Part shown: positions 4 to 26,122 of the stretch, piece by piece
Numbering within the stretch: the first letter of the stretch is position 1
Layout: each line of letters opens with the position of its first letter
Assembly (NCBI GenBank): GCA_050260455.1
Contig: JBLNCF010000017.1
Span: 639 to 64,638, forward strand
Length of the DNA: 64,000 bases
DNA from: Bacillota bacterium
GTDB taxonomy: Bacteria; Patescibacteriota; Minisyncoccia; Phycocordibacterales; Phycocordibacteraceae
Direction: 5' to 3'
Program-made: the position numbers and the translations under genes
The notes under the pieces: model-generated
What the model was told of the DNA's origin: nothing
Database searches by the model: none
Seen by the model: the letters and a program-made list of their open reading frames with translations, nothing else

Positions 4-1809
4 GTGGCCGGTGGTGTAGGTCTCGCGGTGCTCGCTCTCGTTAACTCCCAGCTTATCTGGGGTCTCGTCGCATTGGTGGCACTCGGACTTTTCATCGAGT
101 CCATTATGAAAAAGCGCGGCGATGCCGATGACAGTGACTTCGATGGTGTGGCCGTCGTTTCTGGCGAGCGCATGATTGATGCACCAGATACTGAATCATC
201 CTCGCTTGCCGCTCCGCTGGTAACGCTTCTCATCTCGATCTTCTTCTTGATTGGGGGTTCCACCATCGGTAATGCACTCGTGACAGCATTCAATGCGAGC
301 GTGCTCGATGTCCGTCCGTCCTGGCAATCCACCTTTGATGTGGGTAGTCACACGTTTGCGACCTCGCCGATCTTCGGTTCAGGTCCAGGCACATTCGGTC
401 AGCAGTGGCTCAAGTTCCGTGACCAGTCCTTGAATAACACCATCTTCTGGAATATCGACTTCACGTCGGGCATCGGATACATTCCGACCTCGTTTGTGAC
501 GACCGGTGTCATTGGTGTTCTTGCCTGGCTCGCGTTCCTCGGTCTCTTCCTGTTCTTCGGTATTCGTGCGCTCTTGTTCCGCACCCCGTCGGATGCGTTC
601 ATGCGGTATGTCTCGCTTGCGTCGTTTACCGGCGCAGCGTACGTGCTCGTGCTCTCCATCCTTACGGTGCCGGGTCCTATGGTGCTCATGATTGGGTACC
701 TCATGCTCGGCGTCTTCATCTCGAGCTTGCGGTATGGCCGTGAACGCCGCGAGTTCGGCGTGATCTTCGCCCGGAGCCCGCGCATCGGCTTCGTCATTGT
801 GTTTGGTCTGACGCTTCTCTTGCTTGCGTCAGTCGTCGCAGCGTATGTGGTCGTCGAGCGTTATCTTGCAGATGTGTCGTACGCAAATGCCACGGTGAAG
901 TACGCTTCCGGTGATCTCGCCGGTGCTACTACCGCAGTGAATCGCTCAATCCTGTTCGCTCCTTCCGAGCGCGCATATCAGCTTGCTGCCGCTATCGGCA
1001 TCGGCCGTATGCGTCAGATTGTGGCGGATACCACGCTCGCGCCGTCGGACGCACAGCAGCAGTTCCAGGCCGCGCTTACGGGCGGCATTCAGGCGGGAGC
1101 TACTGCAACACGTCTCTGGCCAAAGAACTACCAGAACTGGGTGATGCTCGGCAATGTGTATGAGACGGTCGTGCCGCTCAATATTGAAGGTGCCTATGAG
1201 AATGCGAAAGCTGCGTTTGAGCAGGCAGAAACACTCTCACCGACCAATCCGACTCTGCCATTCACCATGGCACAGCTTGAGATCGCCAAGGGAAATGCAC
1301 AGGCAGCCGAGGATGATCTTGGAAAGGCCATCACGTTGAAGCGCGATTACACGCAGGCCATCTTCCTTCTCTCGCAGCTTCAGGCGCAGGAAGGGAAGGC
1401 CAAGGAGGCGCTCCAGGCAGCAGAGGCGGCAGCGTACTTTGCACCGAATGATCCAACTGTGCTCTTCCAGGTAGGTATCCTTCGTTCTGCGAACGGCAAT
1501 ACGGATGGTGCAATCGAAGCACTCTCAAAGGCAGTACAGATCAATCCGCAGTACGCGAACGCACACTACTTCCTTGGCGTCATGTACGCCATCAAGGGAC
1601 AGTACGACAAGGCGCTTACGGAGTTGTCCACGGTCGCTGCATACTCGCCGGAAAACGAGAAAGCAGTCGCGGACGACATTGCGGCTCTCAAGGCAGGCAA
1701 GAATCCGTTCCCGGCTTCACGCCTCGGTGCACTCGGCATCCCGCAGGCGAACATCAACGAGCCAGCGAACGCTTCCCCGAAGCCTGCAGCAGCCAGTACC
1801 ACGCAGTAA
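4..1809 (+). CDS. O-antigen ligase (Wzy_C)-like polytopic membrane protein with C-terminal TPR repeats; may be 5'-partial at window edge
   Basis: Long ORF. N-terminal ~270 aa multi-TM hydrophobic segments. C-terminal ~300 aa with repeated TPR-like 34-aa Ala/Leu/Tyr patterns (e.g. 'AHYFLGVMYAIKGQYDKAL'). Confidence 0.55.
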   Translation: MAGGVGLAVLALVNSQLIWGLVALVALGLFIESIMKKRGDADDSDFDGVAVVSGERMIDAPDTESSSLAAPLVTLLISIFFLIGGSTIGNALVTAFNASVLDVRPSWQSTFDVGSHTFATSPIFGSGPGTFGQQWLKFRDQSLNNTIFWNIDFTSGIGYIPTSFVTTGVIGVLAWLAFLGLFLFFGIRALLFRTPSDAFMRYVSLASFTGAAYVLVLSILTVPGPMVLMIGYLMLGVFISSLRYGRERREFGVIFARSPRIGFVIVFGLTLLLLASVVAAYVVVERYLADVSYANATVKYASGDLAGATTAVNRSILFAPSERAYQLAAAIGIGRMRQIVADTTLAPSDAQQQFQAALTGGIQAGATATRLWPKNYQNWVMLGNVYETVVPLNIEGAYENAKAAFEQAETLSPTNPTLPFTMAQLEIAKGNAQAAEDDLGKAITLKRDYTQAIFLLSQLQAQEGKAKEALQAAEAAAYFAPNDPTVLFQVGILRSANGNTDGAIEALSKAVQINPQYANAHYFLGVMYAIKGQYDKALTELSTVAAYSPENEKAVADDIAALKAGKNPFPASRLGALGIPQANINEPANASPKPAAASTTQ

Positions 1810-1832
1810 ATAAAGTGGTAAGCTAGCAAGTA

Positions 1833-3515
1833 ATGGTAAACAGGATACTGAAAACCTTAGTATCCCCGGTACGCGGCCTTCACCAGGCCGCGTACTTGCT
1901 TGCTTTCCTAACGCTTGCCTCGCAAGCACTCGCCCTCATACGCGATCGCCTGTTCGCAAGCCATTTCGGGGCAGGGGAGATACTCGATCTCTACTACGCG
2001 GCCTTCAAGGTGCCGGACGTGGTGTTCGCGCTCGTCGCCTCACTGGTCTCCGCCTATGTGCTTATCCCGCTTATTGCGAAGGCGGATCAAGAAGAATCCA
2101 AACGCTTGTTGTCTCATGCGGCATCGTTCCTGGTGATTGCGGGTGGACTGATCTGTATTGTGCTTGCGATCTTCGCACCGACGTTCCTCTTTGCTTTGTT
2201 CCCGACGTTCCGGCATTCAGTGCATGCAGGCGACTTTGTATTGCTTGCTCGACTGCTTCTCGTCCAACCCATCCTGCTCGGACTCTCGGGAATACTCACC
2301 AGCGTGACGCAGATTCATCGACGCTTTGCGCTCTTTGCTCTGTCACCGGTGCTCTATAACCTGGGCATCATCTTCGGTACGGTCGTGCTCTATCCGTATG
2401 TAGGACTTCCGGGTATCGGCGTGGGTGTGTTACTCGGTGCATTCTTGCATCTGGCCATTCATATCCCCGTGGTGTCACAGGCGGGGCTCTTACCACGACC
2501 AACGCTGCCGTCGCCATCCATCATCTGGTCTGTGATGAAGAGCTCTGTGCCACGTTCGCTCGCACTTGGTATGAGTTCGGTCATCACGCTTCTTCTGATC
2601 TCGCTTGCGTCGCGCACGAGCGAGGGAGGTGTGGCAGTGTATACGCTTGCGGGGAATCTTGAAGCTGTGCCGCTTTCTCTGGTAGGTGCGTCCTACGCGA
2701 CCGCCGCGTTTCCAGTGATGGCGGAACATATGGGAGCCAAGCGGGTGAAAGAATATACTGCAACGCTTGTGGCCGCTGCTCGCCACATCATCTTCTGGTC
2801 GGCGGTGATCACCGTGCTCGCCATTGTATTGCGGGCATATGTGGTGCGCATCATTCTGGGTGCCGGTGCGTTCGATTGGGATGATACCCGCCTCACAGCG
2901 GCAGTGCTCGCTATCCTCGTGGTTGGACTCATGGCGCAGGGACTCATCCTTCTGGCTGCGCGCGCCTTCTATGCCGCCCAGAAATCCTGGAACCCACTTC
3001 TGGTGCAGCTGGCTGACTGCGGTATCTCGGTGGTTTCCGCGTGGGGACTGGTACGTCTCGCCGAGACCTATCCTATGCTTCGGTACTTCATCGAGTCACT
3101 CTTCCGTGTCGGCGACGTGCCCGGTACGAACATCCTCTTCATCGCGCTTGGTGCGACCTTGGGACAGGTCATCATGGGAACGGTCGCGCTCGCAACCTTA
3201 CGCACCGTGGCACCCGGGGTCGCCGGTTCGCTTATACGTCCAGCACTCGAGGCGGCTGGGGCCGCCATTCTCGGTGGTGCAGCCAGCTACGGCGTGCTCT
3301 CGTTCATGGGAACGCTTGCCCCGCTGTCGCGTCTCCCAACTGTCTTCCTTGAGGGTACGGTTGCTGGTATGGTGGGCCTTGCTGTCGCGGCCGCTGTCCT
3401 CGCCGTCCTTGAGAATCAAGAGCTTAAGGATCTTGGGGATGCGCTCACCCGTCTGACGTCCTCGAAGGCGCTCCGTCCGCACGGGGCTCTCCTGGACGAT
3501 CGTGCTGATACCTAG
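1833..3515 (+). CDS. murJ: Lipid II flippase MurJ/MviN
   Basis: 560-aa polytopic membrane protein. N-terminus 'RDRLFASHFGAGEILDLYYAAFKVPD' is the canonical MurJ signature. Confidence 0.9.
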   Translation: MVNRILKTLVSPVRGLHQAAYLLAFLTLASQALALIRDRLFASHFGAGEILDLYYAAFKVPDVVFALVASLVSAYVLIPLIAKADQEESKRLLSHAASFLVIAGGLICIVLAIFAPTFLFALFPTFRHSVHAGDFVLLARLLLVQPILLGLSGILTSVTQIHRRFALFALSPVLYNLGIIFGTVVLYPYVGLPGIGVGVLLGAFLHLAIHIPVVSQAGLLPRPTLPSPSIIWSVMKSSVPRSLALGMSSVITLLLISLASRTSEGGVAVYTLAGNLEAVPLSLVGASYATAAFPVMAEHMGAKRVKEYTATLVAAARHIIFWSAVITVLAIVLRAYVVRIILGAGAFDWDDTRLTAAVLAILVVGLMAQGLILLAARAFYAAQKSWNPLLVQLADCGISVVSAWGLVRLAETYPMLRYFIESLFRVGDVPGTNILFIALGATLGQVIMGTVALATLRTVAPGVAGSLIRPALEAAGAAILGGAASYGVLSFMGTLAPLSRLPTVFLEGTVAGMVGLAVAAAVLAVLENQELKDLGDALTRLTSSKALRPHGALLDDRADT

Positions 3516-16738: not shown

Positions 16739-17182
16739 ATGAATATCCCTACACTCGATCGCCACACAAAGGCAGCCATACAGCACACCCTTCATTGTCT
16801 CGCAGGCTGTTCTATTGGTGAGGTGCTGGGCATGGTGGTCTCCACACTGCTCAATTGGTCTAATGCAGCGAGTATCCTCGTTTCTATTGTGCTCGCGTTC
16901 TTCTTCGGATACTTACTTACCTCATGGTCGCTCTACCGGAATGGCCTGTCGTTTGGGAAGGCTGTTCGTGCCGCAGTGGCTACAGACACCACATCGATAA
17001 TTTCTATGGAAGCGGTAGACAACCTATTCATTCTGTTAGTGCCCGGCGCACTGAACGCGACGCTGGACACCTCACTGTTTTGGCTCAGCCTGGCAGCATC
17101 TCTGGTGGTGGCCTTTATTATTACTGTCCCGGTTAACCGCTGGTTTATTGCGCGTAATCCGCACGCTCATCACCATCACTAA
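16739..17182 (+). CDS. DUF4396-like membrane protein with natural C-terminal His-rich tail
   Basis: 'HCLAGCSIGE' motif typical of DUF4396; 4 TM; ends 'NPHAHHHH'. Confidence 0.5.
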   Translation: MNIPTLDRHTKAAIQHTLHCLAGCSIGEVLGMVVSTLLNWSNAASILVSIVLAFFFGYLLTSWSLYRNGLSFGKAVRAAVATDTTSIISMEAVDNLFILLVPGALNATLDTSLFWLSLAASLVVAFIITVPVNRWFIARNPHAHHHH

Positions 17183-17634
17183 AGGGTGGATACAGAAAGC
17201 CGCGACGGTACATCGCGGCAACACTGGATAGTATGTTTGTGCTCGTTTACGAGGGCACGCTCGCGAGTCGAGTTTCTTGTTTAAGGCGGAAGAAACCCTC
17301 ACCCTCAAAACCTCTCGCCGTTTTTGCCAGGGGAAGGCCCTGGCCCCCTTTCGGCCTTGACCTACACTCCCTATTCCCAAGCCAGTGCCTTGTGAATAGG
17401 GCGGGTCGCGAAAGCTCTTTCCCAAGTCAAATCGTATCACCGCCGGGTGGATCAAATCAAATTGGGAACCCTGTTGGTCCCAGGCGTAATTCTATGTATG
17501 AAAAGCAATTCGGTGACCCAAATTAGTGGTAATTGGAACTCTCTCGTTTCAGAGCTTAATTCCTGGCTTATATTCGGCCGCTCTCTCGAACGAGAGCTGG
17601 AGCTCGTGTAAATACTGCCTTTAAGGACTAGAAA

Positions 17635-18282
17635 CTAAGGGCTATCAGTATCCGGCGGAAATTTATAATCGTTAATTTCACCTGCCACAAACCTGTCTAG
17701 GTATTCTTCCTTTTTGCGATCAAAGTACTGAATCTTTTCCATCGTGTGCTTGCCCTCACGGAGCGGTTCTTTTGTGTAGTTATCGAGAATATATCCGTGC
17801 CCCGGTTCTGGATTGAGCATAGTAAAGAGCTCCGACAGATCTTCTAGCAAAGATTCTACTTCATCATACTGAACTGGAAATCGTTGTAGAAGCTTACTTG
17901 GATCCGCAAGGTGCTCAGCGTTTAAATGTGCAAGCTGATGATCACGCAGACGAGCTATGCTGGTAATAACTCGCTCATGCTTTTTTAGTAATGTCTCTGC
18001 TCGCTCACGCCTAGACGGATCGGGATGATGTTTTAATAGTGCTTGAACCGAAATCACTTGACCGCGCTCGCTAAAGTTTGATTTCTCAAAACACTTTGCC
18101 AAACTTAAAAGCCACTCATTCTGTAGTGCTAGTAGGGTTGCACTCCAGAAGTAATTTGCTTTGTGATATATAGGCTCATAATCCTTATTTTGGAGAGACT
18201 TCCATGAATAGAAAGTGGCACTTGCGCCGAGGAGGTTGCTATATAGCTGGTCGAATCTTTTTTTATATTCATTAACTTCCAT
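17635..18282 (-). CDS. Uncharacterised 215-aa alpha-helical protein encoded immediately downstream of HerA in the island; possible HEPN-like (Rx5H) motif
   Basis: AT-rich like the SIR2/HerA genes; 9-bp gap to the HerA stop, same strand (likely co-transcribed). 'RLRDHQLAHLNAEH' contains an R-x5-H pattern. Confidence 0.55.
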   Translation of the reverse strand: MEVNEYKKRFDQLYSNLLGASATFYSWKSLQNKDYEPIYHKANYFWSATLLALQNEWLLSLAKCFEKSNFSERGQVISVQALLKHHPDPSRRERAETLLKKHERVITSIARLRDHQLAHLNAEHLADPSKLLQRFPVQYDEVESLLEDLSELFTMLNPEPGHGYILDNYTKEPLREGKHTMEKIQYFDRKKEEYLDRFVAGEINDYKFPPDTDSP

Positions 18283-18291
18283 TTTAATAAT

Positions 18292-20223
18292 CTAGTTAGT
18301 CACGTCCTCGTCTTTCCACTTCTCAGAAAGGGTCATTGTCTTGTTTCGGGGTTCGTACTTGGTCGGTATTTTGCCTATATCTACGACCACAGGCACCTGA
18401 GCAAGTAGTCCTGCAAGAATACAGGTACCGGTGGGCAAAATAGGAAGATACTCGAATGAGACTTTGTCTAGATAAGATATCGTCTTTTCGATCGCATAAA
18501 TATCGTTGTTATTTATGAGTCGATGAAGGAAGTAGTTATGCAACTGAGAAATAATGGTGGGAGAAATGTCCGCAGGACGCTGACTGGCAATAGTTAGGAA
18601 CACACCAAATTTGCGGCCTTCCTTGATTATTTCTTCGAAGGTCTCGAGGCGGTAGTCTTTCCATTGCTCGCTCTCTCGGTCAGAAGTGTCTGAGAGAATG
18701 TTGTGTGCCTCGTCAACAATGATGTTGAGATATGAGTTCCCATCTCTCAACTCTTTCTTCTCGTCGTAAAGATTCTTACAGAGCAGAAGGGGCAGGATTT
18801 TTCTGATATGAATATTTACATCTTTTAACGAAACGATGGTTAGATTTCTCTGATTGGTTTCCTCCTCCTGCTCCCCCTTCACAGCCACTACCTTGATCAG
18901 GTCCTTAACTTTCGTATCGAGACGCTTTAAAAGAGGTGAAATATGATCTCGATTAGAGTAGCCTTTGAAGATCTCATCGTAATACTTGATGATTATCTTT
19001 AGACGGATAAAGGCAATCTCATTTTCAGTAAATTCGAGTAGGTTGATTTGAGCTCTCACTGGCTCTGTGAAGTGGGTTGAGATATTCGCAGCACTGTAGC
19101 GATCATTTCCAACTACTCCATTAGCACGAACAAAGTAAGTGCCATTGGTGCTGTTGAAGTCCAGAGTGTTGTTTACAAGGCCCATGATTGTGTTTATTGG
19201 ACCCTCATCGTTTACGCTGGCCCTTAGATCAGAGAAAAGCTCAACAAAAATCCTTGCACCGAGGCTCTTGTCGTTTTTAGCTAGAACGTCCTCAACAAAA
19301 GAGGCAATTTTCTCGCGAAGGTTCGCGTTTGGTGAACCTGTAGTATCTACATTCTCGAAGATTTGCCTTGTGAAGCCACCTTCGAGCGCCCGCACCAAAA
19401 ATGGAGCTTGAGTCTTTTCAGTAGCCTCCAGGAAAACAGTCCAGAAACTGGCTTCGTTGAGAGCCTCTTTTGTTATGGGGTATTTATCTTTCCCAGTCGT
19501 TGCGCGGGTGGAGAGTTTATAGATTCGTTTGTGTTTTGACTCGACAATAATGTCGTCGGCTTCCTCGTCGTCTGCTGTGTATTCACCATTGAAGTCAATA
19601 AGGAAGAACTTAGCGTTTTGAAAGAACTTTGACTGATCTTTATAAAATTTGAAGAGCTCGTGATAGATCTTCGCAAGTGTATAGGATTTACCGCTTCCAG
19701 TATTACCAAAAATGCCTATATGGCTCGCGAAAAGACTATTGACTCCAACGCTGATGTCCTGACCCTTTTCCAGAGCCAGACGGCCAATTGCAATTGGATC
19801 ATCGTCTCCGCGAATGAAATTGTGCACCTCGTTAAACTCTCTATTAGGAAGGAGGTAGCATTCATTCCCTACAAGGGGGAGTTCCTTTATTCCTCTTTCG
19901 AATTGGTCTCCCTTAAAGAAACCGAGAAGGCTTACGGCAAGTATCCTATTGATACGTTCCTTCTCATTCACGTAATCCTTCTTTGAAAAGGTGGGATCTT
20001 CGCTAGTGAATTCACCTTCAACCTTGCCGATAATCTTCGTAAAGCCTTTGACGATTTTTATATAACCTCCAACAGAGATATTTTTGAGCAACTCACCCTT
20101 ATAAAGGAGGTGCGATGTGTTCTTGGTCTTATCGACTTTTATCTTAATGGTTCTGCCATCCACCGATACAACCTTACCTATCTTAAATATGGAGTCCTCG
20201 AGGATTTGGCTGTCGTTGCTCAT
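18292..20223 (-). CDS. herA: HerA-like ATPase (DUF87/HerA helicase family) of a SIR2-HerA defence system
   Basis: N-terminal HAS-barrel-like beta region, Walker A 'GIFGNTGSGKSYTLAKI', Walker B 'IIVDEAHNIL'; 643 aa. Start overlaps the upstream SIR2 gene stop by 4 nt. Confidence 0.8.
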   Translation of the reverse strand: MSNDSQILEDSIFKIGKVVSVDGRTIKIKVDKTKNTSHLLYKGELLKNISVGGYIKIVKGFTKIIGKVEGEFTSEDPTFSKKDYVNEKERINRILAVSLLGFFKGDQFERGIKELPLVGNECYLLPNREFNEVHNFIRGDDDPIAIGRLALEKGQDISVGVNSLFASHIGIFGNTGSGKSYTLAKIYHELFKFYKDQSKFFQNAKFFLIDFNGEYTADDEEADDIIVESKHKRIYKLSTRATTGKDKYPITKEALNEASFWTVFLEATEKTQAPFLVRALEGGFTRQIFENVDTTGSPNANLREKIASFVEDVLAKNDKSLGARIFVELFSDLRASVNDEGPINTIMGLVNNTLDFNSTNGTYFVRANGVVGNDRYSAANISTHFTEPVRAQINLLEFTENEIAFIRLKIIIKYYDEIFKGYSNRDHISPLLKRLDTKVKDLIKVVAVKGEQEEETNQRNLTIVSLKDVNIHIRKILPLLLCKNLYDEKKELRDGNSYLNIIVDEAHNILSDTSDRESEQWKDYRLETFEEIIKEGRKFGVFLTIASQRPADISPTIISQLHNYFLHRLINNNDIYAIEKTISYLDKVSFEYLPILPTGTCILAGLLAQVPVVVDIGKIPTKYEPRNKTMTLSEKWKDEDVTN

Positions 20224-21392
20224 ACGTGAGGCTTATTCCTCTCTTCGATCATCTTCAAAAGGCAGTCGAATATCTCAGTGTTTATATTCGCGAAATCGAA
20301 TTCATATTTATCACCCCCGCCGTCTTCTTCTGGTTTCTGCTCCGGTACAATAACTTTCACGTTGTCGTTCTTAATATGCGCGATATCAAGTTTCGCCTCA
20401 AAGTCAGCTTTTGATTTCGAGGAATGAGCAATTATGAGGACAGTAAGGGTTGGGTTCGAGTTTGCCGCTCGAAGCGTAATTTCGCGAATATGCTCATCAG
20501 CGAAAGAAAAGCCTAGAACAAAGAGAACGGTGTTTTCCTTTTCGAGCTCATTAGCGTACATGCGCAATAGCTCATAATGGATTTGGTTCAGGAGTGTAAG
20601 CTTAAATTTCTCCTTAGTCGGGTTAATGATAGGGAGTTCCTGGTACGAGCCAAGAAATTCCTCCGTTGTCGGAGAGAGGCGTTTTCTCGCAGTTGCAGTA
20701 GTAAGGTCCTGAAGAGATTGTCCAGGCGCGGCCGCCACGATCTCCGTGTAGCCATTAGCTTTCAGTTTGCTGACAATCCTAAGATCGGGACTGAACTTAA
20801 TCTTCTTCTCTCCATTTACCTCGCATACCTCCCAAGTAAGGGAGCCGTGCAACTTAAGAAGATTAAAGACCGGAATTTCTGAGGTGTTGTCGAAATGCAG
20901 GCTCTTTTGGAAAGTAGACTTTCTAAAATTACTCAAGTTGAAGATAGGCATAAATCGCCCATTGAAGCCATCGCTATATTCCAGGCCGAGTTCCTCGAGA
21001 GCTTTTTCGAAATAAATATCGATATTCGTCGTGAAGATGTTTACTTGCTTGTTTATTATTGAATTCTTTCGACTGAGGAGAATTGTGTTAATGACTTTAA
21101 GAAACTGCTTGTAGTTTTTAAGAACTTCCTCGGATGCAGGGTCGTCCTTCAGGATCTCTACGTTTTTGAAGACGATTTCCTCGCAATAGCGTTTATAGAG
21201 AGCGGCACGAATCAGCTTCTTCTTTGAATCTGCTAGATCGGAGCTATCGACTTGGCTAAGCAGATCCTCGATGTTGCCAAGAACTCTAAGGAACGGCATA
21301 GAAAGGCCCGACCCTATGAGGAAGTTAATGTTGCTGTCCTGGACAGTATCTTTAAGCGCCCCTATGTTCATAGGACCCTTGCCTGGTGCCAT
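20220..21392 (-). CDS. SIR2-like (SIR2_2 family) NAD-binding/NADase domain protein, partner of HerA
   Basis: SIR2_2 motifs 'NFLIGSGLS...PFL' (GAGxS Rossmann motif), 'FTTNIDIYFEKALEE' (TTNYD-like) and 'LLKLHGSLTW' (HGS); 390 aa. Confidence 0.75.
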   Translation of the reverse strand: MAPGKGPMNIGALKDTVQDSNINFLIGSGLSMPFLRVLGNIEDLLSQVDSSDLADSKKKLIRAALYKRYCEEIVFKNVEILKDDPASEEVLKNYKQFLKVINTILLSRKNSIINKQVNIFTTNIDIYFEKALEELGLEYSDGFNGRFMPIFNLSNFRKSTFQKSLHFDNTSEIPVFNLLKLHGSLTWEVCEVNGEKKIKFSPDLRIVSKLKANGYTEIVAAAPGQSLQDLTTATARKRLSPTTEEFLGSYQELPIINPTKEKFKLTLLNQIHYELLRMYANELEKENTVLFVLGFSFADEHIREITLRAANSNPTLTVLIIAHSSKSKADFEAKLDIAHIKNDNVKVIVPEQKPEEDGGGDKYEFDFANINTEIFDCLLKMIEERNKPHV

Positions 21393-21990
21393 ATCTTGGA
21401 TTATAGACCTTATCTCCTTAAGTCAATAGTTTAGCAAGCCCCACAAAGTAAAATAGTAGTTTTGCAAGGCCTAAAAGAGATAAGAGAAAATTTAGGAGCC
21501 TATAAAGTGCTCTCACATTGAACTAGGGGATATTGAACGGATTTGCAGATACTAGAAACGCCTAAATTCCAGCCCAAGAATAGGGCGATGAAAAATACCG
21601 TCCCAATTATTATCCACGCACCCAAACGCTCTCCAGAGCTCATCTTTGACTCGCTCATAGCAGATCTTGACTAGCCTGATAAAAAACCTCGTGTGGACAC
21701 AGAGAACCCGCCACGGGTCCCTGACCGAAGCCAGGCGTACAGGTTTCCCCATACGGCGATCAAGCACCCCCATGACGGGTTCTCTGTGCTTGATCGACTT
21801 TTCATGCCATGCCGTTGCCGGTTTAGGCATCGCCCTTGCTTGGGCCGGTATTCAGTTGTCTCCTAATGCTACTTCCTAACGACACCTCTCGCAATTGGGC
21901 TGGTATAATGATCTGAACAACCAAAGTGTAGGTAGGGGAGGCCCAAACCTTAGATCAAGTCTGAGCTTGAGATAAGACGGGCGAATCCCA

Positions 21991-22185
21991 ATGCTTACCC
22001 TCTCTCAGTTAAGAAAAATAGATCCGGCTCTAACTCATATATCGGATGAGGATCTTGAAGCTATTAGATCTGAGCTATACCAGATCGCTCGGCTAGCCTT
22101 TGATTTCAAATACAGAGAAGTTGATTCCAAAAATCTAATTGGGTTATTGGCACCGGAACCCGTTATGCCTAAGATTGAATCATGA
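21991..22185 (+). CDS. Small (64-aa) ORF translationally coupled to the serine recombinase; possible recombination-directionality/regulatory factor
   Basis: Stop overlaps the recombinase ATG (ATGA); preceded by a 'tataat' -10-like element at ~21913. Confidence 0.3.
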   Translation: MLTLSQLRKIDPALTHISDEDLEAIRSELYQIARLAFDFKYREVDSKNLIGLLAPEPVMPKIES

Positions 22186-23708
22186 AGCATATTGGCGAAC
22201 TAACAGGCGTCGTATACTGTCGAGTTTCATCGCAAGAGCAAGTAGCAGGCACAAGCCTTGCTATGCAGGAAAGGTCTTGTCGCGAATATGCTAGGAGAGA
22301 AGGTATTGAGGTGGTTGGCTGCTTCGTTGAAGAAGGTGAATCGGCAAAAACAGCAAACCGAACGGAGTTTCAAAAGGCGCTAGCGTTTTGCGCGGATAAA
22401 AAGAAACCTGTTGATTTTTTCATCGTACATAAACTTGATCGTTTCTCCAGAAACCAGGATGATCATGTTACAACTCAGGCCTTTCTAAGAAAATACGGGA
22501 CGAAGCTTAGATCAGTAACTGAGCAAATCGACGAGACTCCAATCGGCAAAATGATGGAGGGAGTTCTCGCCACATTTGCAGAATTTGATAATAACGTTCG
22601 CGCTGCTCGAAGTAAGAGTGGAATGCAAGAAAAAGCACGTAAAGGAATATGGGTCTGGATTGCCCCTCTCGGCTATAAAAGACTCGTAAAAGGCGGAAAT
22701 TTGGTCATAGACGAGGAAGCTGCTCCTTTTGTGCGCCTAGCTTTTGAGGAGTACTCAAAGGGTATTCATAGCTTTGAGTCGCTAGCGGATCACTTGTTTG
22801 AGAGAGGATTTCGCACCTCCAGTGGTAAGAAAATTTATAAACAACTTCTTGAGAAGATACTACGCAATCCGATTTATTACGGGAAGATCAAAGCCTTTGG
22901 TGAAGAAATTGATGGTGCGTTCCCATCGATTATCGATGAAAGACTTTTTTGGAAATGTCAGCCAGGAACAAAGAGCAAGTTTCGGCCAGGTAAGAGACTT
23001 AAAGAAAACTCAGATTTTCCTCTCAGGAGAATTGTTAAGTGTACAGAATGCGGCTCCTCGATTACAGGTAGCGCATCAACTGGACGCAAAGGAGTCAAAT
23101 ACCCTTATTACCATCATCACAAGCAAGGATGTTCTTTAGCCTCATTCGTCCCAAAAGAATCTTTTGAACAGAATTTCATTTCTTATTTGCAGGAACTCTC
23201 TCCAAACCCAGCTTATGAGAAGCTTTTTAGAGCAATTGTGATCGATACCTGGCAATCAAATTATCAAGAACTAGATAAGGAAAACGAGAAGGTCAGAAGA
23301 GAAATATCTGATTTGGAAGATGAGCGCCAAAGAGTATTTGATGCTCAGCGTTCTGGCGTTTACACAAATGAAGAGTTTTTGCAGCAAAAAGATCGTATCA
23401 ATAAAATAATCAACCAGAAGAAGTTTCTACTAGAGGAAAAACAAATTGAAGAATTCAATATGGAAGAAGCTTTAGACTACTGTTTCCGGTTTGTGGGTGA
23501 TAGCTCAAGAACCTGGATCGAGCTCGGAGAAGATCCGTCATTCCGTCTTAGATTCCAAAATCAGTTATTCCCAGAAAAACTTACGTACGATGGGCAAAAA
23601 TTTGGAACCACTAAAACATCCCTTATATACGAGCTAAGCCAGCCCTGTAATGACGATTCAACTAAATTGGTGACCCCACGGGGAATCGAACCCCGATTTA
23701 CGCCGTGA
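22182..23708 (+). CDS. Large serine recombinase (resolvase catalytic domain + recombinase domain + zinc-ribbon + coiled-coil)
   Basis: N-terminal 'VVYCRVSSQEQ' catalytic-serine motif and 'FIVHKLDRFSRN'; central recombinase domain; 'CTECGSSITGS' Cys-rich zinc ribbon; C-terminal coiled-coil. The last 41 nt overlap the antisense tRNA-Glu. Confidence 0.9.
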   Translation: MKHIGELTGVVYCRVSSQEQVAGTSLAMQERSCREYARREGIEVVGCFVEEGESAKTANRTEFQKALAFCADKKKPVDFFIVHKLDRFSRNQDDHVTTQAFLRKYGTKLRSVTEQIDETPIGKMMEGVLATFAEFDNNVRAARSKSGMQEKARKGIWVWIAPLGYKRLVKGGNLVIDEEAAPFVRLAFEEYSKGIHSFESLADHLFERGFRTSSGKKIYKQLLEKILRNPIYYGKIKAFGEEIDGAFPSIIDERLFWKCQPGTKSKFRPGKRLKENSDFPLRRIVKCTECGSSITGSASTGRKGVKYPYYHHHKQGCSLASFVPKESFEQNFISYLQELSPNPAYEKLFRAIVIDTWQSNYQELDKENEKVRREISDLEDERQRVFDAQRSGVYTNEEFLQQKDRINKIINQKKFLLEEKQIEEFNMEEALDYCFRFVGDSSRTWIELGEDPSFRLRFQNQLFPEKLTYDGQKFGTTKTSLIYELSQPCNDDSTKLVTPRGIEPRFTP

Positions 23709-23742
23709 AAGGGCGCTGTCCTAGCCGTTAGACGATGGGGCC
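23668..23742 (-). tRNA. tRNA-Glu (anticodon TTC)
   Basis: Reverse complement: ggcccca...T-arm cgggg-ttcgatt-ccccg, anticodon loop ctTTCac, 3' CCA encoded; G-U in the anticodon stem. Confidence 0.75.
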
Positions 23743-23950: not shown

Positions 23951-24418
23951 TTAGGTAGTGCGCTTACGCTGTAGGTAGGTGATGCCTGCGAGCGCGGCGA
24001 GTCCCGAGAGAAGGAGGACAGCCAGTGTTTCTGCTGCGTTACCTCCAGCTCCGGTATTCGGTACGCCTACCGTCGAGGCTCCGAGCACCGAACCGGGATA
24101 GGTGGTGGTCGTAGGATTGTTGCTGGTGGATGCTCCGAGGACGGAACCGCCACCACCGCCTCCTCCACCTCCACCGCCCCCACCACCTCCACCAGAGGAG
24201 CCGCCTGAGACGGTGCCCGTGAGGGAACCGGTACTGCTTCCGCTAACGGTGCCGGTGAGCGTGCCGCTTGAGGAAGTGGAGACCGTTCCGGTCAGGGTGC
24301 TCGTGGAAGTGTTCGTGGCTGCGGAGCCTGCGGTGAGCGTTCCCGTGATCTCGGACGCGAACGCTGGCGTTGCGATAGCGAACGCAAGCAGTCCAGAAAC
24401 GAGAAGTCGAGTGTTCAT
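23951..24418 (-). CDS. Small secreted cell-wall-anchored (LPXTG-type 'VPNTG') repeat protein with poly-Gly tract
   Basis: Signal peptide. Four 'TLTGTVS' Thr/Ser-rich repeats and a 16-Gly run. C-terminal sorting signal 'VPNTG' + hydrophobic stretch + 'QRKRTT'. Confidence 0.6.
   Translation of the reverse strand: MNTRLLVSGLLAFAIATPAFASEITGTLTAGSAATNTSTSTLTGTVSTSSSGTLTGTVSGSSTGSLTGTVSGGSSGGGGGGGGGGGGGGGGSVLGASTSNNPTTTTYPGSVLGASTVGVPNTGAGGNAAETLAVLLLSGLAALAGITYLQRKRTT
24146..24193. repeat. Simple-sequence (GGN)16 tract encoding poly-glycine
   Basis: Uninterrupted run of 16 Gly codons ('ccaccaccgcctcctccacctccaccgccccc...' on the plus strand). Confidence 0.7.
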
Positions 24419-24457: not shown

Positions 24458-26122
24458 TTACGGGGTGGTCGAGGTTGCCGTCGACGGGATGGACTGTGCG
24501 CCGTACGTGGTGCTGTACGAACCATTCGGCGTGCCGCTTGGAACCTTCACCTGAATATCGACATCAACCTGCCGGCCGGGCGTCGTAGTAGACGTGTCGC
24601 CTGCGAGGTAGAGCCAATCTCCGTAGTCATTGTCCGTTGCGTAGACTGCGCTCGCGGTCGACGTAGCGTTTGTAGACTGCGAGGAGAAGATACGGATGTT
24701 GTTCGCTGCAGGAATGGTGCTTGAGCCTGACACGAAGTCAGAGAACTTCATGCGGAAGGCGTTTTCAAGATCAGGCACGGTGAGGTGCATGATCCATTCC
24801 CATCCATGCAGGAACGTGTCATCTGCCGTTGCATCGGTCTTGATGGCATCAATACCGGTCACCGCAAGCGGTGTTGAGGACGAAGTCGAGCTCGTCGTGA
24901 ATGTCTGGTCAGACGACGTGGTGGTGCCCACACCATTGGCCGCTACGATCTGGAAGTGATAGAGGGTCGCTTCCGTGAGATTCGTGAGCGTCACCGAATG
25001 AGTGGACGACGCGGTCGTGTCGAGCGTCGAGGACGAACCATAGCCAGTCGTCGTGCCGTACATGAGCTGCGTCGAGGAGGCGGTCGTGTTCCACGAGACC
25101 GTCGCCGTACTGGTGCCGATACCCGTTACCGAGATACCGCTAATGACCGGTGCACTCGGGGTCGAGCTGCCCGAGGTGGTCGTGAACGTCGCATCAGCGG
25201 AGGTGGTGGTACCTACCGCGTTTGCGGACGCTACCTGGAAGTGGTAGGTCGTCGACGCATCAAGGCCGGTGAGCGTCACCGAATGGGACGTAGACGCGGT
25301 CGTGTTTAGGGTCGAAGACGAGCCGTATCCTGCGGTAAGGCCATAGAAGACCTGCGACGATGCTGCCACATCCGTGTTCCAGGTCACCGTAGCGGTGGTG
25401 GAACCGATGTTAGTCACCGTCACTCCGCTCACTACCGGAGCAAGAAGTGCCCCAAGTGTAGTGAACGTATCATCGGTGGTCGTTGCGGTATTGTCCGAAG
25501 CATCCGTCGCCGAGATCTGGAAGTGATACAGCGTGGATGCGGTAAGACCAGTGATGGTTACGGAATGAGTCGTCGTTGCGCTTGATTCAAGCGTGGTTGA
25601 CGAACCATACCCGCTCGTGAGGCCGTAGGAGACCTGACCCTGCGTGGCTTCGTCCGTGGTCCAGCTGATGGTCGTGCTGGTAGCACTCGGCATCACCGAG
25701 ACATTCGAGATGACCGGAGCGGTCACATCGGCGGGCGTGAAGCTGAAGACCAGCAAGTTCGAGTTCTCGTTCTGCTTGTGCGGAGGATCGGAAGCTGCAG
25801 CGGAATTCTCCGGAACCGAGACAGAAACCGTCCCTGTTGCGGTCGGATTAAGATTGAAGCTGTAGCTTGCACCGCTTCCGGTGAAATCAGACACGGTTCC
25901 GTTTGATACCGAAAGATCAGAAGACGTGAAGCCCGTCACGGATGCTGAAAACGTTACGGTTACCGGAATCGAAGTTGCTGATGTGGTGGATGCCGTCGAG
26001 GAGGCGAGCAGTACCGACGGACCACCGGAATCCGCGAAGGCGATCGAAGACATGCCAATAGCGCTAAGCGCCACGGCCGCAGCGGTCACCGCGGATATAA
26101 TGCGTGGTTGTTTAAGTCTCAT
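24458..26122 (-). CDS. Secreted surface protein with three tandem FN3-like ~95-aa repeats
   Basis: Signal peptide. Repeats 'APV(I/V)SG(I/V)(S/T)V...T(V/I)(S/T)W(N/T)T...Y(G/T)...GYGSS(S/T)TL...H(S)VTLTGL...YHFQ(I/V)' x3, resembling FN3/PKD modules. Ser/Thr-rich linkers; distinct N- and C-terminal domains. Confidence 0.7.
   Translation of the reverse strand: MRLKQPRIISAVTAAAVALSAIGMSSIAFADSGGPSVLLASSTASTTSATSIPVTVTFSASVTGFTSSDLSVSNGTVSDFTGSGASYSFNLNPTATGTVSVSVPENSAAASDPPHKQNENSNLLVFSFTPADVTAPVISNVSVMPSATSTTISWTTDEATQGQVSYGLTSGYGSSTTLESSATTTHSVTITGLTASTLYHFQISATDASDNTATTTDDTFTTLGALLAPVVSGVTVTNIGSTTATVTWNTDVAASSQVFYGLTAGYGSSSTLNTTASTSHSVTLTGLDASTTYHFQVASANAVGTTTSADATFTTTSGSSTPSAPVISGISVTGIGTSTATVSWNTTASSTQLMYGTTTGYGSSSTLDTTASSTHSVTLTNLTEATLYHFQIVAANGVGTTTSSDQTFTTSSTSSSTPLAVTGIDAIKTDATADDTFLHGWEWIMHLTVPDLENAFRMKFSDFVSGSSTIPAANNIRIFSSQSTNATSTASAVYATDNDYGDWLYLAGDTSTTTPGRQVDVDIQVKVPSGTPNGSYSTTYGAQSIPSTATSTTP
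24850..25720. repeat. Three tandem ~290-bp imperfect DNA repeats (encode the FN3-like modules)
   Basis: Protein-level triplication mapped back to DNA; repeats share ~60-70% identity. Confidence 0.6.

What the first reader, a model, noticed from the sequence alone, without database searches (positions are those of the whole stretch)
17635..21392. SIR2-HerA anti-phage defence module on an AT-rich island, with an extra third gene
Seen in sequence: three co-directional minus-strand genes are much more AT-rich than the flanking ~58% GC core genes. The first (20220..21392) carries the SIR2_2 motifs GxGxS ('IGSGLS'), 'TTNID' and 'KLHGS'. Its stop overlaps by 4 nt the start of a 643-aa HerA/DUF87 ATPase with Walker A 'GNTGSGKS' and Walker B 'VDEAH'. 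Established knowledge: SIR2+HerA pairs form a supramolecular NAD-depleting abortive-infection system (Gao 2020; later structural work). Inference: a 215-aa helical gene (17635..18282), 9 bp downstream and of matching composition, may make this a three-component variant, which is not part of the described canonical system. Defence islands in tiny Patescibacteria-like genomes are uncommon and worth characterising.
Basis: partly seen in the sequence, partly recalled or inferred. Interest (0 to 1): 0.8.

Follow-up and report, generated by a model that had tools for sequence, protein, structure and literature searches.

The report
SIR2-HerA plus solo HEPN gene on island
A 6.2-kb mobile island inserted at a tRNA-Glu gene of a Parcubacteria-type bacterium carries an ordinary two-gene SIR2-HerA anti-phage system, and the "extra third gene" is a separate HEPN (AbiU2-family) gene that is never its partner elsewhere.

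Summary
Three co-directional minus-strand genes lie in a 43% GC island within a 55% GC genome. The first two are a bona fide SIR2-HerA pair: the family HMMs match, the catalytic motifs are present, and both proteins match both subunits of solved SIR2-HerA complexes.

The three-component interpretation is not supported. The third gene is a HEPN_AbiU2 protein (PF18734) with an invariant R113...H119 motif. None of 160 related SIR2-HerA loci carries it. None of six other lineages of its homologues lies next to SIR2 or HerA. In relatives the slot after HerA holds unrelated defence genes, including type I and III restriction enzymes, AbiH and QatA-like proteins.

The island is a 6,157-bp integrative element. 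It has a large serine recombinase whose 3' end overlaps tRNA-Glu(ttc), 8-bp flanking repeats (GGTGACCC) and an empty site in related genomes.

Two side observations may be new. A LOOT RNA (RF03000) heads the cargo operon here and in related serine-recombinase elements of Patescibacteria. The AbiU2-family gene recurs as low-GC cargo immediately 3' of tRNA-Glu genes.

Verdict: a new member of known kinds, of modest interest.

The parts
20220..21392 (-). SIR2-family NADase subunit of SIR2-HerA (390 aa)
   Evidence: PF13289 E=3.7e-12. PADLOC SIR2 PDLC04080 E=4.9e-62. It matches the SIR2 chains of solved SIR2-HerA complexes 8j4u_A, 8yhx_G and 8w9l_A, with TTNID and KLHGS aligned to ifttNyD and klHGS. 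Motif residues are G27/G29, N123/D125 and H182.
18292..20223 (-). HerA-type ATPase subunit of SIR2-HerA (643 aa); its start overlaps the SIR2 stop by 4 nt
   Evidence: PF01935 E=1.6e-15. PADLOC HerA PDLC04097 E=3.7e-176 over residues 11-639. It matches the HerA chains of the same solved complexes: 8yho_A, 8wiv_A and 8j4u_M. Walker A is at K179 and Walker B at D504/E505. More than 5,400 homologues were found, the closest at 59-71% identity, across many phyla.
17635..18282 (-). HEPN_AbiU2-family protein (215 aa): a predicted RNase-type abortive-infection or toxin gene. It is the last cargo gene of the island and is not a SIR2-HerA component.
21500..21658 (-). Hypothetical 52-aa ORF with a hydrophobic stretch (judged by eye; no transmembrane prediction was run), between the LOOT RNA and SIR2
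   Evidence: ORF listing only; no family hit. In the other LOOT-bearing elements checked, a small co-directional ORF likewise follows LOOT. Whether it codes for protein is unverified.
21680..21829 (-). LOOT RNA (RF03000; Rfam match 21720-21829) plus a conserved ~20-nt 3' tail (about 21698-21719) complementary to the apical part of its long hairpin
   Evidence: Rfam score 68.4 bits against a gathering score of 46.4, full model. My own covariance model gives 73 bits. The tail pairing is seen in all 6 LOOT loci, with changes on both strands.
21991..22185 (+). 64-aa ORF overlapping the recombinase start by 4 nt (possible small accessory or directionality factor; unverified)
   Evidence: ORF listing. 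No Pfam, NCBIfam or PHROG hit. No tblastn hit in any fetched locus.
22182..23708 (+). Large serine recombinase (integrase), 508 aa; its last 41 nt overlap the 3' end of tRNA-Glu
   Evidence: Resolvase PF00239 E=4e-35, Recombinase PF07508 E=5.5e-13 and Zn_ribbon_recom. PHROG 95 'integrase' E=2.7e-92. NCBIfam CcrB/XisF-like, below the equivalog cut-offs. The YCRVSS motif is visible in the sequence.
23668..23742 (-). tRNA-Glu(UUC), the integration target; its 3' end is rebuilt by island sequence
   Evidence: ARAGORN and Rfam tRNA, 60 bits. Related genomes L297 and L298 have the same tRNA-Glu without an island.
17512..17519 (.). Left island boundary: 8-bp direct repeat GGTGACCC (a copy of the tRNA-Glu 3' end), followed by the original tRNA-Glu 3' flank
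   Evidence: Read on the minus strand, the left junction is TGGGTCACCGAATTGCTTTTCATAC. This matches the sequence just after tRNA-Glu in the island-free relative L297, GGGGTCACAATTGACTTTTGTATAC. The GC content shifts at this point.
23669..23676 (.). Right island boundary: the 8-bp direct repeat GGTGACCC inside the tRNA-Glu acceptor end. The two repeats are 6,157 bp apart.
   Evidence: The reconstructed attP core AATTTGG-GTCA-CCAATTT is an imperfect dyad, as expected for a serine-recombinase site (sequence; the site function is inferred).

Best explanation
The region is a 6.16-kb integrative element. A large serine recombinase inserted it into the 3' end of tRNA-Glu(UUC) in a Parcubacteria-group genome. 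Its cargo operon starts with a LOOT RNA and a small ORF. It then encodes two independent defence modules placed back to back.

(1) A canonical two-gene SIR2-HerA system. By homology to the solved and tested systems, the HerA ATPase hexamer scaffolds a SIR2 ring. On phage infection the complex releases the SIR2 NADase, which depletes NAD+ and aborts the infection.

(2) A single-domain HEPN_AbiU2 protein. It is predicted to be a metal-independent RNase that uses R113 and H119, acting as a separate abortive-infection or toxin-type effector with an unknown trigger. It is probably co-transcribed with HerA, since the gap is only 9 nt, but it is not a subunit or obligate partner.

Shown here: gene identities, catalytic motifs, island boundaries, the empty site in relatives, and the absence of co-occurrence. 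Inferred from homology: the NADase, ATPase and RNase activities, the anti-phage phenotype, co-transcription and the recombinase's site use.
For: SIR2-HerA identity:
- Family HMMs match.
- Both proteins match both chains of the solved complexes 8j4u, 8yhx/8yho and 8wld-series entries.
- 153 of 160 HerA relatives have an adjacent SIR2.
- The mechanism comes from the literature: PMC11514289, PMC11472057 and PMC13434337. All described types are two-gene systems.

Independence of the third gene:
- 0 of 160 SIR2-HerA loci carry an AbiU2 homologue.
- The homologues P0004, P0007, P0008, P0009, P0017 and P0019 (51-71% identity) are never near SIR2 or HerA.
- All of about 150 listed family representatives are small single-domain proteins, with no SIR2 or HerA fusions.
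- Genes following HerA fall into 56 clusters among 70 ORFs. They include HsdR, a type III REase, MTases, AbiH, KAP/QatA-like, NERD, PIN and PDC-S05 proteins and a BsoBI REase.

Mobile element:
- Serine recombinase domains and overlap of its 3' end with tRNA-Glu.
- 8-bp repeats, and a left-junction flank homologous to the tRNA-Glu 3' flank of island-free relatives.
- 43% against 55% GC, and island-type codon usage for all island genes.
- The same layout (tRNA or tmRNA, overlapping serine recombinase, LOOT, SIR2, HerA, variable last gene) in L018, L019 and L023.
Against: - The 9-nt HerA-AbiU2 gap has no obvious ribosome-binding site or promoter. This implies co-expression and leaves room for a functional link specific to this locus.
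- In the founding lactococcal system, the HEPN protein AbiUii did not confer resistance by itself. It lowered the activity of its neighbour AbiUi (PMC13064643). AbiU2-family proteins may therefore be modulators rather than stand-alone effectors.
- Only seven AbiU2 lineages of this subfamily could be examined.
- No activity was or could be tested.
- The NCBIfam 'equivalog' cut-offs for the anti-phage SIR2 and HerA models are far from met: 76 against 500 bits and 121 against 800 bits. This is therefore a divergent subtype whose biochemistry might differ from the studied ones.
Confidence: 0.8

Rival explanations
1. A true three-component variant. The AbiU2-like HEPN protein is an accessory of SIR2-HerA. 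It could be a second (RNase) effector switched on by NAD+ breakdown, or a modulator that tunes SIR2-HerA toxicity, as AbiUii tunes AbiUi in Lactococcus.
For: The gap after HerA is 9 nt, on the same strand and with the same composition. No independent promoter or terminator signal lies between the genes. Lactococcal AbiUii modulates its neighbour's activity (PMC13064643).
Against: 0 of 160 related SIR2-HerA loci have it. 0 of 6 other AbiU2 lineages have SIR2 or HerA nearby. No domain fusions were found. Equally tight junctions in relatives link HerA to unrelated restriction, Abi and other defence genes. All experimentally described SIR2-HerA types are two-gene systems.
Confidence: 0.08
2. Composite history. 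The AbiU2 gene was already resident as a mini-island at tRNA-Glu, as in other Parcubacteria. The recombinase/LOOT/SIR2-HerA element later inserted between the tRNA and it. The adjacency would then be an accident of two insertions at one hotspot, not joint cargo.
For: In L001, L007, L010 and L014 the AbiU2 homologue lies 81-868 bp 3' of a tRNA-Glu, in integrase-less low-GC mini-islands of about 1.3-1.6 kb. L001 is at the same tRNA-Ser(cga)/tRNA-Glu(ttc) site as the window. L010 has two extra copies of the tRNA 3' end, a mark of repeated integration.
Against: Only 9 nt separate HerA from AbiU2, and there is no copy of the tRNA 3' end or att remnant between them. The only repeat of the tRNA end lies distal to AbiU2. 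AbiU2's GC (42%) and codon usage match the recombinase rather than the host. The closest relatives L297 and L298 have no AbiU2 at this tRNA. Either way the functional conclusion (independent modules) is unchanged.
Confidence: 0.1
3. The third gene is not an anti-phage gene at all. It would be an addiction or stabilisation toxin, or an RNA-processing factor, serving the mobile element itself.
For: It is always on low-GC mobile DNA at tRNA genes. There is no hit in PADLOC or PHROGs. The founding AbiUii has no demonstrated protective activity on its own.
Against: No conserved antitoxin-like neighbour is seen; the adjacent small genes differ between loci. In L013 it sits in a defence island with an OLD-family ATPase-nuclease and restriction-modification-type genes (a DNA methylase and a DEAD/ResIII helicase). 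HEPN Abi families are widely linked to defence (PMC3710099).
Confidence: 0.1

Closest known systems
SIR2-HerA (Gao 2020 'SIR2+HerA'; Nezha; E. coli types I-III; Paenibacillus and other solved complexes 8j4u, 8yhx, 8wld)
   Same: A two-gene operon with overlapping stop and start codons. A SIR2_2 NADase with the N/D and H catalytic motifs. A HerA/DUF87 ATPase with Walker A and B. Both proteins match both chains of the solved complexes.
   Different: Very divergent from the studied systems (phmmer E about 1e-12 for SIR2 and about 1e-29 for HerA) and well below the NCBIfam equivalog cut-offs. It belongs to the subtype captured by PADLOC models PDLC04080 and PDLC04097, which is spread across Patescibacteria, Bacteroidota, Acidobacteriota, Campylobacterota, Actinomycetota and one archaeal MAG (Methanomassiliicoccales). 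No member of this subtype is known to me to have been tested.
AbiUii / HEPN_AbiU2 (PF18734) of the Lactococcus lactis AbiU locus
   Same: It scores above the Pfam gathering threshold, has the HEPN Rx4-6H motif, and is a small all-helical single-domain protein on mobile DNA next to other defence genes.
   Different: In Lactococcus it is paired with AbiUi, the nuclease-like effector, and dampens it. Here no AbiUi-like gene is present, and the homologues are solitary. This subfamily is small: 179 representatives at 50% identity among 1.84 billion. In the lineages whose neighbourhood was examined it was found in Patescibacteria-type contexts. It is recurrently placed 3' of tRNA-Glu.
Large-serine-recombinase integrative elements (phage-type serine integrases, SCCmec Ccr, XisF-type)
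   Same: The Resolvase + Recombinase + zinc-ribbon architecture. A short core repeat at both junctions. A reconstructed attP with imperfect dyad symmetry. A target inside a tRNA gene. Defence cargo.
   Different: Very small (6.2 kb), with no replication, transfer or capsid genes. The recombinase ORF runs into the tRNA gene. The element carries a LOOT RNA. The related elements L018, L019 and L023 use tRNA-Trp, tmRNA and tRNA-Leu.
LOOT RNA motif (Rfam RF03000; Weinberg et al. 2017 collection)
   Same: A full-length match above the gathering score with the consensus multi-hairpin structure, which is also the MFE fold.
   Different: Rfam lists it as a metagenome-derived sRNA, and I found no assigned function in the library I could search. 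Here and in five other loci it lies in mobile or defence contexts, four times next to a serine recombinase. It also has a 3' tail complementary to its own long hairpin that lies outside the Rfam model.

Membership tests
SIR2-HerA anti-phage system | SIR2-family (SIR2_2) protein with the NAD-binding GxG motif and catalytic N/D and H motifs | tested here: met
   PF13289 at 47 bits against a gathering score of 24.5. PADLOC SIR2 E=4.9e-62. G27/G29, N123/D125 and H182 align with the motifs of 8j4u_A.
SIR2-HerA anti-phage system | HerA/FtsK-type P-loop ATPase with Walker A and B, encoded immediately next to SIR2 in one operon | tested here: met
   PF01935 E=1.6e-15. PADLOC HerA E=3.7e-176, full length. 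K179 and D504/E505, with a 4-nt stop/start overlap. 153 of 160 relatives keep the SIR2-HerA pairing.
SIR2-HerA anti-phage system | Homology of both proteins to the two subunits of experimentally solved SIR2-HerA assemblies | tested here: met
   SIR2 matches 8j4u_A, 8yhx_G and 8w9l_A. HerA matches 8yho_A, 8wiv_A and 8j4u_M.
SIR2-HerA anti-phage system | Equivalog-level match to NCBIfam SIR2_antiphage / HerA_antiphage | tested here: not met
   76 bits against a cut-off of 500, and 121 against 800. This is a divergent subtype, not the same orthologous group as the curated ones. It does not affect family-level membership.
SIR2-HerA anti-phage system | Supramolecular SIR2 ring:HerA hexamer assembly; phage-triggered NAD+ depletion; phage protection | not testable with these tools
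   This needs multimer modelling or biochemistry, and phage assays.
Hypothetical three-component SIR2-HerA-X variant | The third gene is conserved next to SIR2-HerA in related loci, or fused to or co-evolving with them | tested here: not met
   0 of 160 loci by tblastn and by profile. 0 of 6 AbiU2 lineages are near SIR2 or HerA. There are no fusions among the family representatives. The slot after HerA is hypervariable.
HEPN_AbiU2 (PF18734) | Pfam model above the gathering score | tested here: met
   52.6 bits against 26.8, covering residues 5-156. 16 of the 18 other homologues also carry a precomputed PF18734 hit.
HEPN_AbiU2 (PF18734) | HEPN Rx4-6H catalytic motif, conserved | tested here: met
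   R113-x5-H119 is invariant in 19 sequences.
HEPN_AbiU2 (PF18734) | HEPN-type helical bundle fold | tested here: inconclusive
HEPN_AbiU2 (PF18734) | RNase activity / abortive-infection phenotype | not testable with these tools
   The founding AbiUii was not protective on its own (PMC13064643).
Large serine recombinase integrative element | Resolvase catalytic domain + recombinase domain + zinc ribbon | tested here: met
   PF00239, PF07508 and PF13408. PHROG 95 integrase E=2.7e-92.
Large serine recombinase integrative element | Defined junctions with a short core repeat, and an empty site in related genomes | tested here: met
   GGTGACCC at 17512-17519 and 23669-23676. The left-junction flank matches the tRNA-Glu 3' flank of L297. 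L297 and L298 lack the island.
Large serine recombinase integrative element | Recombinase-catalysed excision and integration at these sites | not testable with these tools
   This needs junction reads of the circular form or an in vitro/in vivo attB x attP assay.
LOOT RNA (RF03000) | Covariance-model score above the Rfam gathering threshold over the full model | tested here: met
   68.4 bits against 46.4, model positions 1-121.

The most novel reading that the evidence does not exclude
The LOOT RNA, so far an orphan metagenomic motif, may be a working part of a family of very small serine-recombinase integrative elements of Patescibacteria. These elements insert into tRNA and tmRNA genes and ferry swappable defence cargo: SIR2-HerA plus a variable last gene. 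LOOT would head the cargo operon and could switch between two folds through its conserved 3' tail. Alongside this, the AbiU2-family HEPN gene may be a dedicated tRNA-Glu-site cassette (integrase-less mini-islands of 1.3-1.6 kb) that such recombinases mobilise in trans.
Probability: 0.3. Interest if true: 0.55.

Novelty: new member of a known kind. Interest (0 to 1): 0.3.

Why it matters
The main claim would have been a new architecture for a well-studied NAD+-depleting defence system. The comparative evidence says it is not one. The locus is a divergent but ordinary two-gene SIR2-HerA with an unrelated single-gene HEPN module packed behind it.

The case is a useful caution. Tight, even translationally coupled, spacing inside defence islands does not imply a shared system: in relatives of this HerA the same slot holds dozens of unrelated defence genes.

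The context has some value of its own:
- It gives a fully delimited, minimal (6.2 kb) defence-carrying integrative element in a reduced Parcubacteria genome.
- It puts the orphan LOOT RNA in a concrete genetic setting.
- It shows that tRNA-Glu 3' ends are a recurrent landing site for AbiU2-family cargo in this group.

Tried and rejected
- A loose LOOT sequence pattern scanned against viral contigs returned 120 loci. From the pattern's low information content I judged these to be mostly chance matches. They were never scanned with the covariance model, so the scan was set aside as uninformative.
- Searching viral contigs for relatives of the recombinase found none.
- A MAFFT alignment of four LOOT copies gave almost no consensus structure.
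- A single-sequence covariance model missed known copies. It was replaced by a model built from a structure-guided alignment.
- PHROGs, PADLOC and PDB sequence searches gave nothing for the third protein, the 64-aa ORF or the 52-aa ORF.
- The promoter and terminator scans were at background level.
- I tried to delimit the related islands by repeats of the tRNA end. L018 gave a 12-nt repeat 12.6 kb away that would enclose an ORF I took, from its N-terminal sequence only, to be the housekeeping gene murB, so I did not trust it. L019 and L023 gave nothing convincing.
- I considered whether the LOOT loops match the att cores, as in RNA-guided recombinases. I saw no convincing match by eye and did not pursue it.
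- No supplementary text of the 2017 motif paper was available to check what its authors said about LOOT's gene neighbourhood.

Full report
**1. Observation**

All quoted motifs are present:
- SIR2: IGSGLS at residue 26, TTNID at 121 and KLHGS at 180.
- HerA: GNTGSGKS at 173 and VDEAH at 503.

The SIR2 stop and HerA start overlap in ATGA. Nine nucleotides (ATTATTAAA) separate the HerA stop from the start of the third gene.

The low-GC stretch is real and longer than reported. It runs from about 17.5 kb to about 23.7 kb, at 43.1% GC against 54.8% for the rest of the window.

**2. The first two genes are a SIR2-HerA system**

- SIR2: PF13289 E=3.7e-12; PADLOC SIR2 model PDLC04080 E=4.9e-62.
- HerA: PF01935 E=1.6e-15; PADLOC HerA model PDLC04097 E=3.7e-176 over the whole protein.

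Against PDB sequences, the SIR2 protein hits the SIR2 chains of 8j4u, 8yhx and 8w9l. The HerA protein hits the HerA chains of the same assemblies: 8j4u_M, 8yho/8yhx and the 8wiv/8wld series. The catalytic N/D and H motifs align.

The pair is divergent from the studied systems. NCBIfam equivalog models score 76 and 121 bits against cut-offs of 500 and 800. It belongs to a large, horizontally spread subtype:
- More than 5,400 HerA homologues were found. The closest are 59-71% identical and occur in Patescibacteria, Bacteroidota, Acidobacteriota, Campylobacterota, Actinomycetota and an archaeal MAG.
- In 160 fetched loci encoding relatives (43-68% identity), 153 have SIR2 next to HerA.

The mechanism is taken from the literature, not tested here. 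HerA (ATPase, with helicase, nuclease or nickase activity) and SIR2 (NADase) form one complex. Phage cues and an ATP checkpoint gate its NADase, which leads to NAD+ depletion and abortive infection (PMC11514289, PMC11472057, PMC13434337). Every described type, including the 2026 E. coli types I-III, is a two-gene system.

**3. The third gene**

It is a HEPN_AbiU2 family protein:
- PF18734 E=5.1e-14, 52.6 bits against a gathering score of 26.8.
- Nineteen homologues (51-100% identity) keep R113 and H119 invariant. This is the HEPN Rx4-6H motif, here RDHQLAH.
- The AlphaFold2 model is confident (pLDDT 84) and all-helical.
- PADLOC, PHROGs and PDB sequence searches give nothing.
- An exhaustive profile search of 1.84 billion representatives finds only 179 relatives. 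Essentially all are small single-domain proteins, so there are no fusions to SIR2 or HerA.

In the founding Lactococcus locus, AbiUi alone protects and the HEPN protein AbiUii lowers that protection (PMC13064643 citing Dai 2001). A stand-alone defence role for this family is therefore plausible (PMC3710099) but not proven.

**4. Is it a partner of SIR2-HerA? No.**

Forward test. Six other lineages of the third protein were examined in their contigs (P0008, P0009, P0007, P0004, P0017, P0019). None has SIR2 or HerA within the sequence available. Five sit among housekeeping genes. One (L013) sits with an OLD-family ATPase-nuclease and restriction-modification-type genes (a DNA methylase and a DEAD/ResIII helicase).

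Reverse test. None of the 160 SIR2-HerA loci contains an AbiU2-like ORF, by tblastn or by a family HMM at E<=1.

The slot after HerA:
- 134 loci have at least 700 bp downstream of HerA.
- 106 loci have a co-directional ORF starting within 200 bp, and 38 have one of at least 100 aa within 30 bp.
- The 70 downstream ORFs of at least 100 aa fall into 56 sequence clusters, the largest with four members.
- The tightly linked ones hit type I HsdR, a type III REase, DNA methylases, DUF2779/Cas4-like nucleases, AbiH, KAP/QatA-like NTPases, NERD, PIN, RhuM and PDC-S05. L019 has a BsoBI endonuclease.

Tight packing behind HerA is therefore usual and joins unrelated defence genes.

**5. What the island is**

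The remaining low-GC DNA encodes a 508-aa large serine recombinase at 22182..23708 (+). It has Resolvase, Recombinase and zinc-ribbon domains and matches PHROG 95 'integrase' at E=2.7e-92. A 64-aa ORF overlaps its start.

Its last 41 nt overlap the 3' end of tRNA-Glu(UUC) at 23668..23742 (-).

The 8-mer GGTGACCC occurs at 23669-23676, inside the tRNA acceptor end, and again at 17512-17519, 6,157 bp away, just beyond the AbiU2 gene.

Read on the minus strand, the left junction is …TTTGGGTCACCGAATTGCTTTTCATAC…. In the island-free relative L297 (TsaD 79% identical), the tRNA-Glu is followed by …GGGGTCACAATTGACTTTTGTATAC…. The sequence left of the island is therefore the displaced original 3' flank of the tRNA. 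L298 also has tRNA-Ser(cga)/tRNA-Glu(ttc) with no island.

The reconstructed attP core (AATTTGG-GTCA-CCAATTT) is an imperfect dyad. That it functions as a serine-recombinase site is an inference.

All island genes share low GC (40-44%) and a codon usage unlike the host's.

The host is a Parcubacteria-group organism. The named best TsaD hits are Parcubacteria, Patescibacteria and a taxon whose name is cut at 'Min' in the output, at about 67-75% identity. The record is nonetheless labelled 'Bacillota bacterium'.

**6. Related elements**

Three of the closest SIR2-HerA loci have the same layout:

| Locus | Host | Target gene | Recombinase |
|---|---|---|---|
| L018 | Paceibacterota | tRNA-Trp 699-770 | 705..2468, overlapping the tRNA |
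| L019 | Saccharibacteria | tmRNA 376-766 | 745..2214, overlapping |
| L023 | Saccharibacteria | tRNA-Leu 189-273 | 216..1856, overlapping |

Each continues with a LOOT RNA, then SIR2-HerA, then a different last gene. The last genes are two unknown ORFs in L018, a BsoBI REase in L019 and an unknown 199-aa protein in L023. L023 also carries a Prim-Pol gene.

The window's element is one member of a small family of recombinase-borne defence islets in Patescibacteria. AbiU2 is its particular variable terminal cargo.

**7. Side findings**

(a) LOOT RNA.
- RF03000 matches 21720-21829 (-) at 68.4 bits against a gathering score of 46.4, and the Rfam structure equals the MFE fold.
- A covariance model built here finds LOOT in only six places among 176 loci: the window, L013, L018 (=L097), L019, L023 and L162. 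Four of these are next to a serine recombinase. L013 is a defence island that also ends with an AbiU2 homologue.
- In the five loci checked, LOOT lies 48-230 nt upstream of a small co-directional ORF.
- In all six, the ~20 nt after the last Rfam hairpin are complementary to the apical part of the long hairpin (for example CACAGAGAACCCGUCAUGGG with CCCGUGGCGGGUUCUCUGUG), with changes on both strands between loci. Duplex z-scores against shuffles are -2.3 to -6.9.
- This suggests a pseudoknot or an alternative fold outside the Rfam model.
- I could find no functional description of LOOT in the library.
- The sample is biased, because the loci were chosen for HerA or AbiU2. The association therefore needs an unbiased survey.

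(b) AbiU2 and tRNA-Glu.
- In four of the six other lineages the homologue lies 81-868 bp 3' of a tRNA-Glu (UUC or CUC), in the same orientation.
- It sits in low-GC segments of about 1.3-1.6 kb: AbiU2 is 35-44% GC against flanks of 48-52%.
- In L001, L007 and L014 these segments end in 9-10-nt repeats of the tRNA end, preceded by a conserved pseudo-tRNA 3' half. In L010 no distal repeat was found before the contig end.
- L010 has two extra 16-18-nt copies of the tRNA 3' end.
- L001 is at the same tRNA-Ser/tRNA-Glu site as the window.

This fits AbiU2 being mobile cargo tied to tRNA-Glu integration sites. It raises the alternative that AbiU2 was there first and the recombinase element landed beside it. 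Three points argue for joint cargo here: the 9-nt junction with no att remnant, the matching composition, and the absence of AbiU2 in the nearest relatives. The functional conclusion is the same either way.

**8. Verdict**

- The SIR2-HerA, AT-rich island and Patescibacteria parts of the interpretation are supported.
- The three-component variant is not supported.

The locus is a new, divergent member of known kinds: SIR2-HerA, a HEPN_AbiU2 gene and a serine-recombinase integrative element. Interest is modest (0.3). What is potentially new lies outside the original claim: the LOOT-recombinase element family and the tRNA-Glu-linked AbiU2 cassettes.

Noticed in passing
window 21680-21829 (-); also L013:4142-4263, L018:2796-2925, L019:5593-5717 (-), L023:4743-4871, L162:4928-5050: A LOOT RNA (RF03000), an orphan metagenomic motif, lies between the serine recombinase and the defence operon. 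It recurs in related Patescibacteria elements, four of six times beside a serine recombinase. In the five loci checked it lies 48-230 nt upstream of a small co-directional ORF. The sample is biased towards HerA and AbiU2 loci.
   Followed up: partly
window 21698-21719 with 21769-21788; equivalent positions in the five other LOOT loci: The ~20 nt immediately 3' of the Rfam LOOT model are complementary to the apical part of LOOT's long hairpin in all six loci, with changes on both strands. This suggests a pseudoknot or an alternative fold that is not part of RF03000 (duplex z -2.3 to -6.9 against shuffles).
   Followed up: partly
L001:7784-9301, L007:7664-9058, L010:4145-5730, L014:861-2512: Homologues of the third gene sit just 3' of tRNA-Glu (UUC or CUC) genes in four other lineages. 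They are in low-GC, integrase-less mini-islands of about 1.3-1.6 kb. In L001, L007 and L014 these end in 9-10-nt repeats of the tRNA end preceded by a conserved pseudo-tRNA 3' half.
   Followed up: partly
L010:4418-4436 and 4831-4849: Two extra 16-18-nt copies of the tRNA-Glu 3' end lie between the tRNA and the AbiU2 homologue. They look like scars of repeated integration and excision at this hotspot.
   Followed up: no
window 23668-23708; L018:705-770; L019:745-766; L023:216-273: In all four elements the serine-recombinase ORF runs into the 3' end of the target tRNA or tmRNA gene, so the element supplies both the recombinase C-terminus and the rebuilt RNA 3' end.
   Followed up: partly
whole window (source record): The NCBI source labels the contig 'MAG: Bacillota bacterium'. 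The closest named TsaD relatives and all AbiU2 and element relatives are Parcubacteria or Patescibacteria, so the taxonomic label looks wrong.
   Followed up: partly
window 17183-17511: About 330 bp of GC-rich sequence lies between the last host gene (16739..17182) and the island boundary. It has no convincing ORF and no Rfam hit, and contains a hairpin followed by a T-containing tail on the minus strand at 17465-17481. Its function is unknown. It includes the displaced tRNA-Glu 3' flank.
   Followed up: no
L297:5064-8140: In this close relative the tRNA-Glu gene is inverted and separated from tRNA-Ser by about 3 kb carrying four genes, unlike the window and L298. This indicates further rearrangement at the same hotspot.
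   Followed up: no
L017-L176, position just 3' of HerA: The slot directly downstream of HerA is hypervariable: 56 clusters among 70 ORFs. It often holds other defence genes with gaps of 30 bp or less or overlapping start codons. This is a caution against reading tight spacing as system membership.
   Followed up: yes
window 23951-24418 (-) and 24458-26122 (-): Just outside the island lie two ORFs. One is a 155-aa Gly/Ser/Thr-rich protein with a 9-nt tandem repeat (24147-24191) and a hydrophobic C-terminal stretch that by eye resembles an anchor. The other is a 554-aa Ser/Thr-rich protein with internally repeated sequence blocks, possibly a surface protein. No domain search was run on either.
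   Followed up: no
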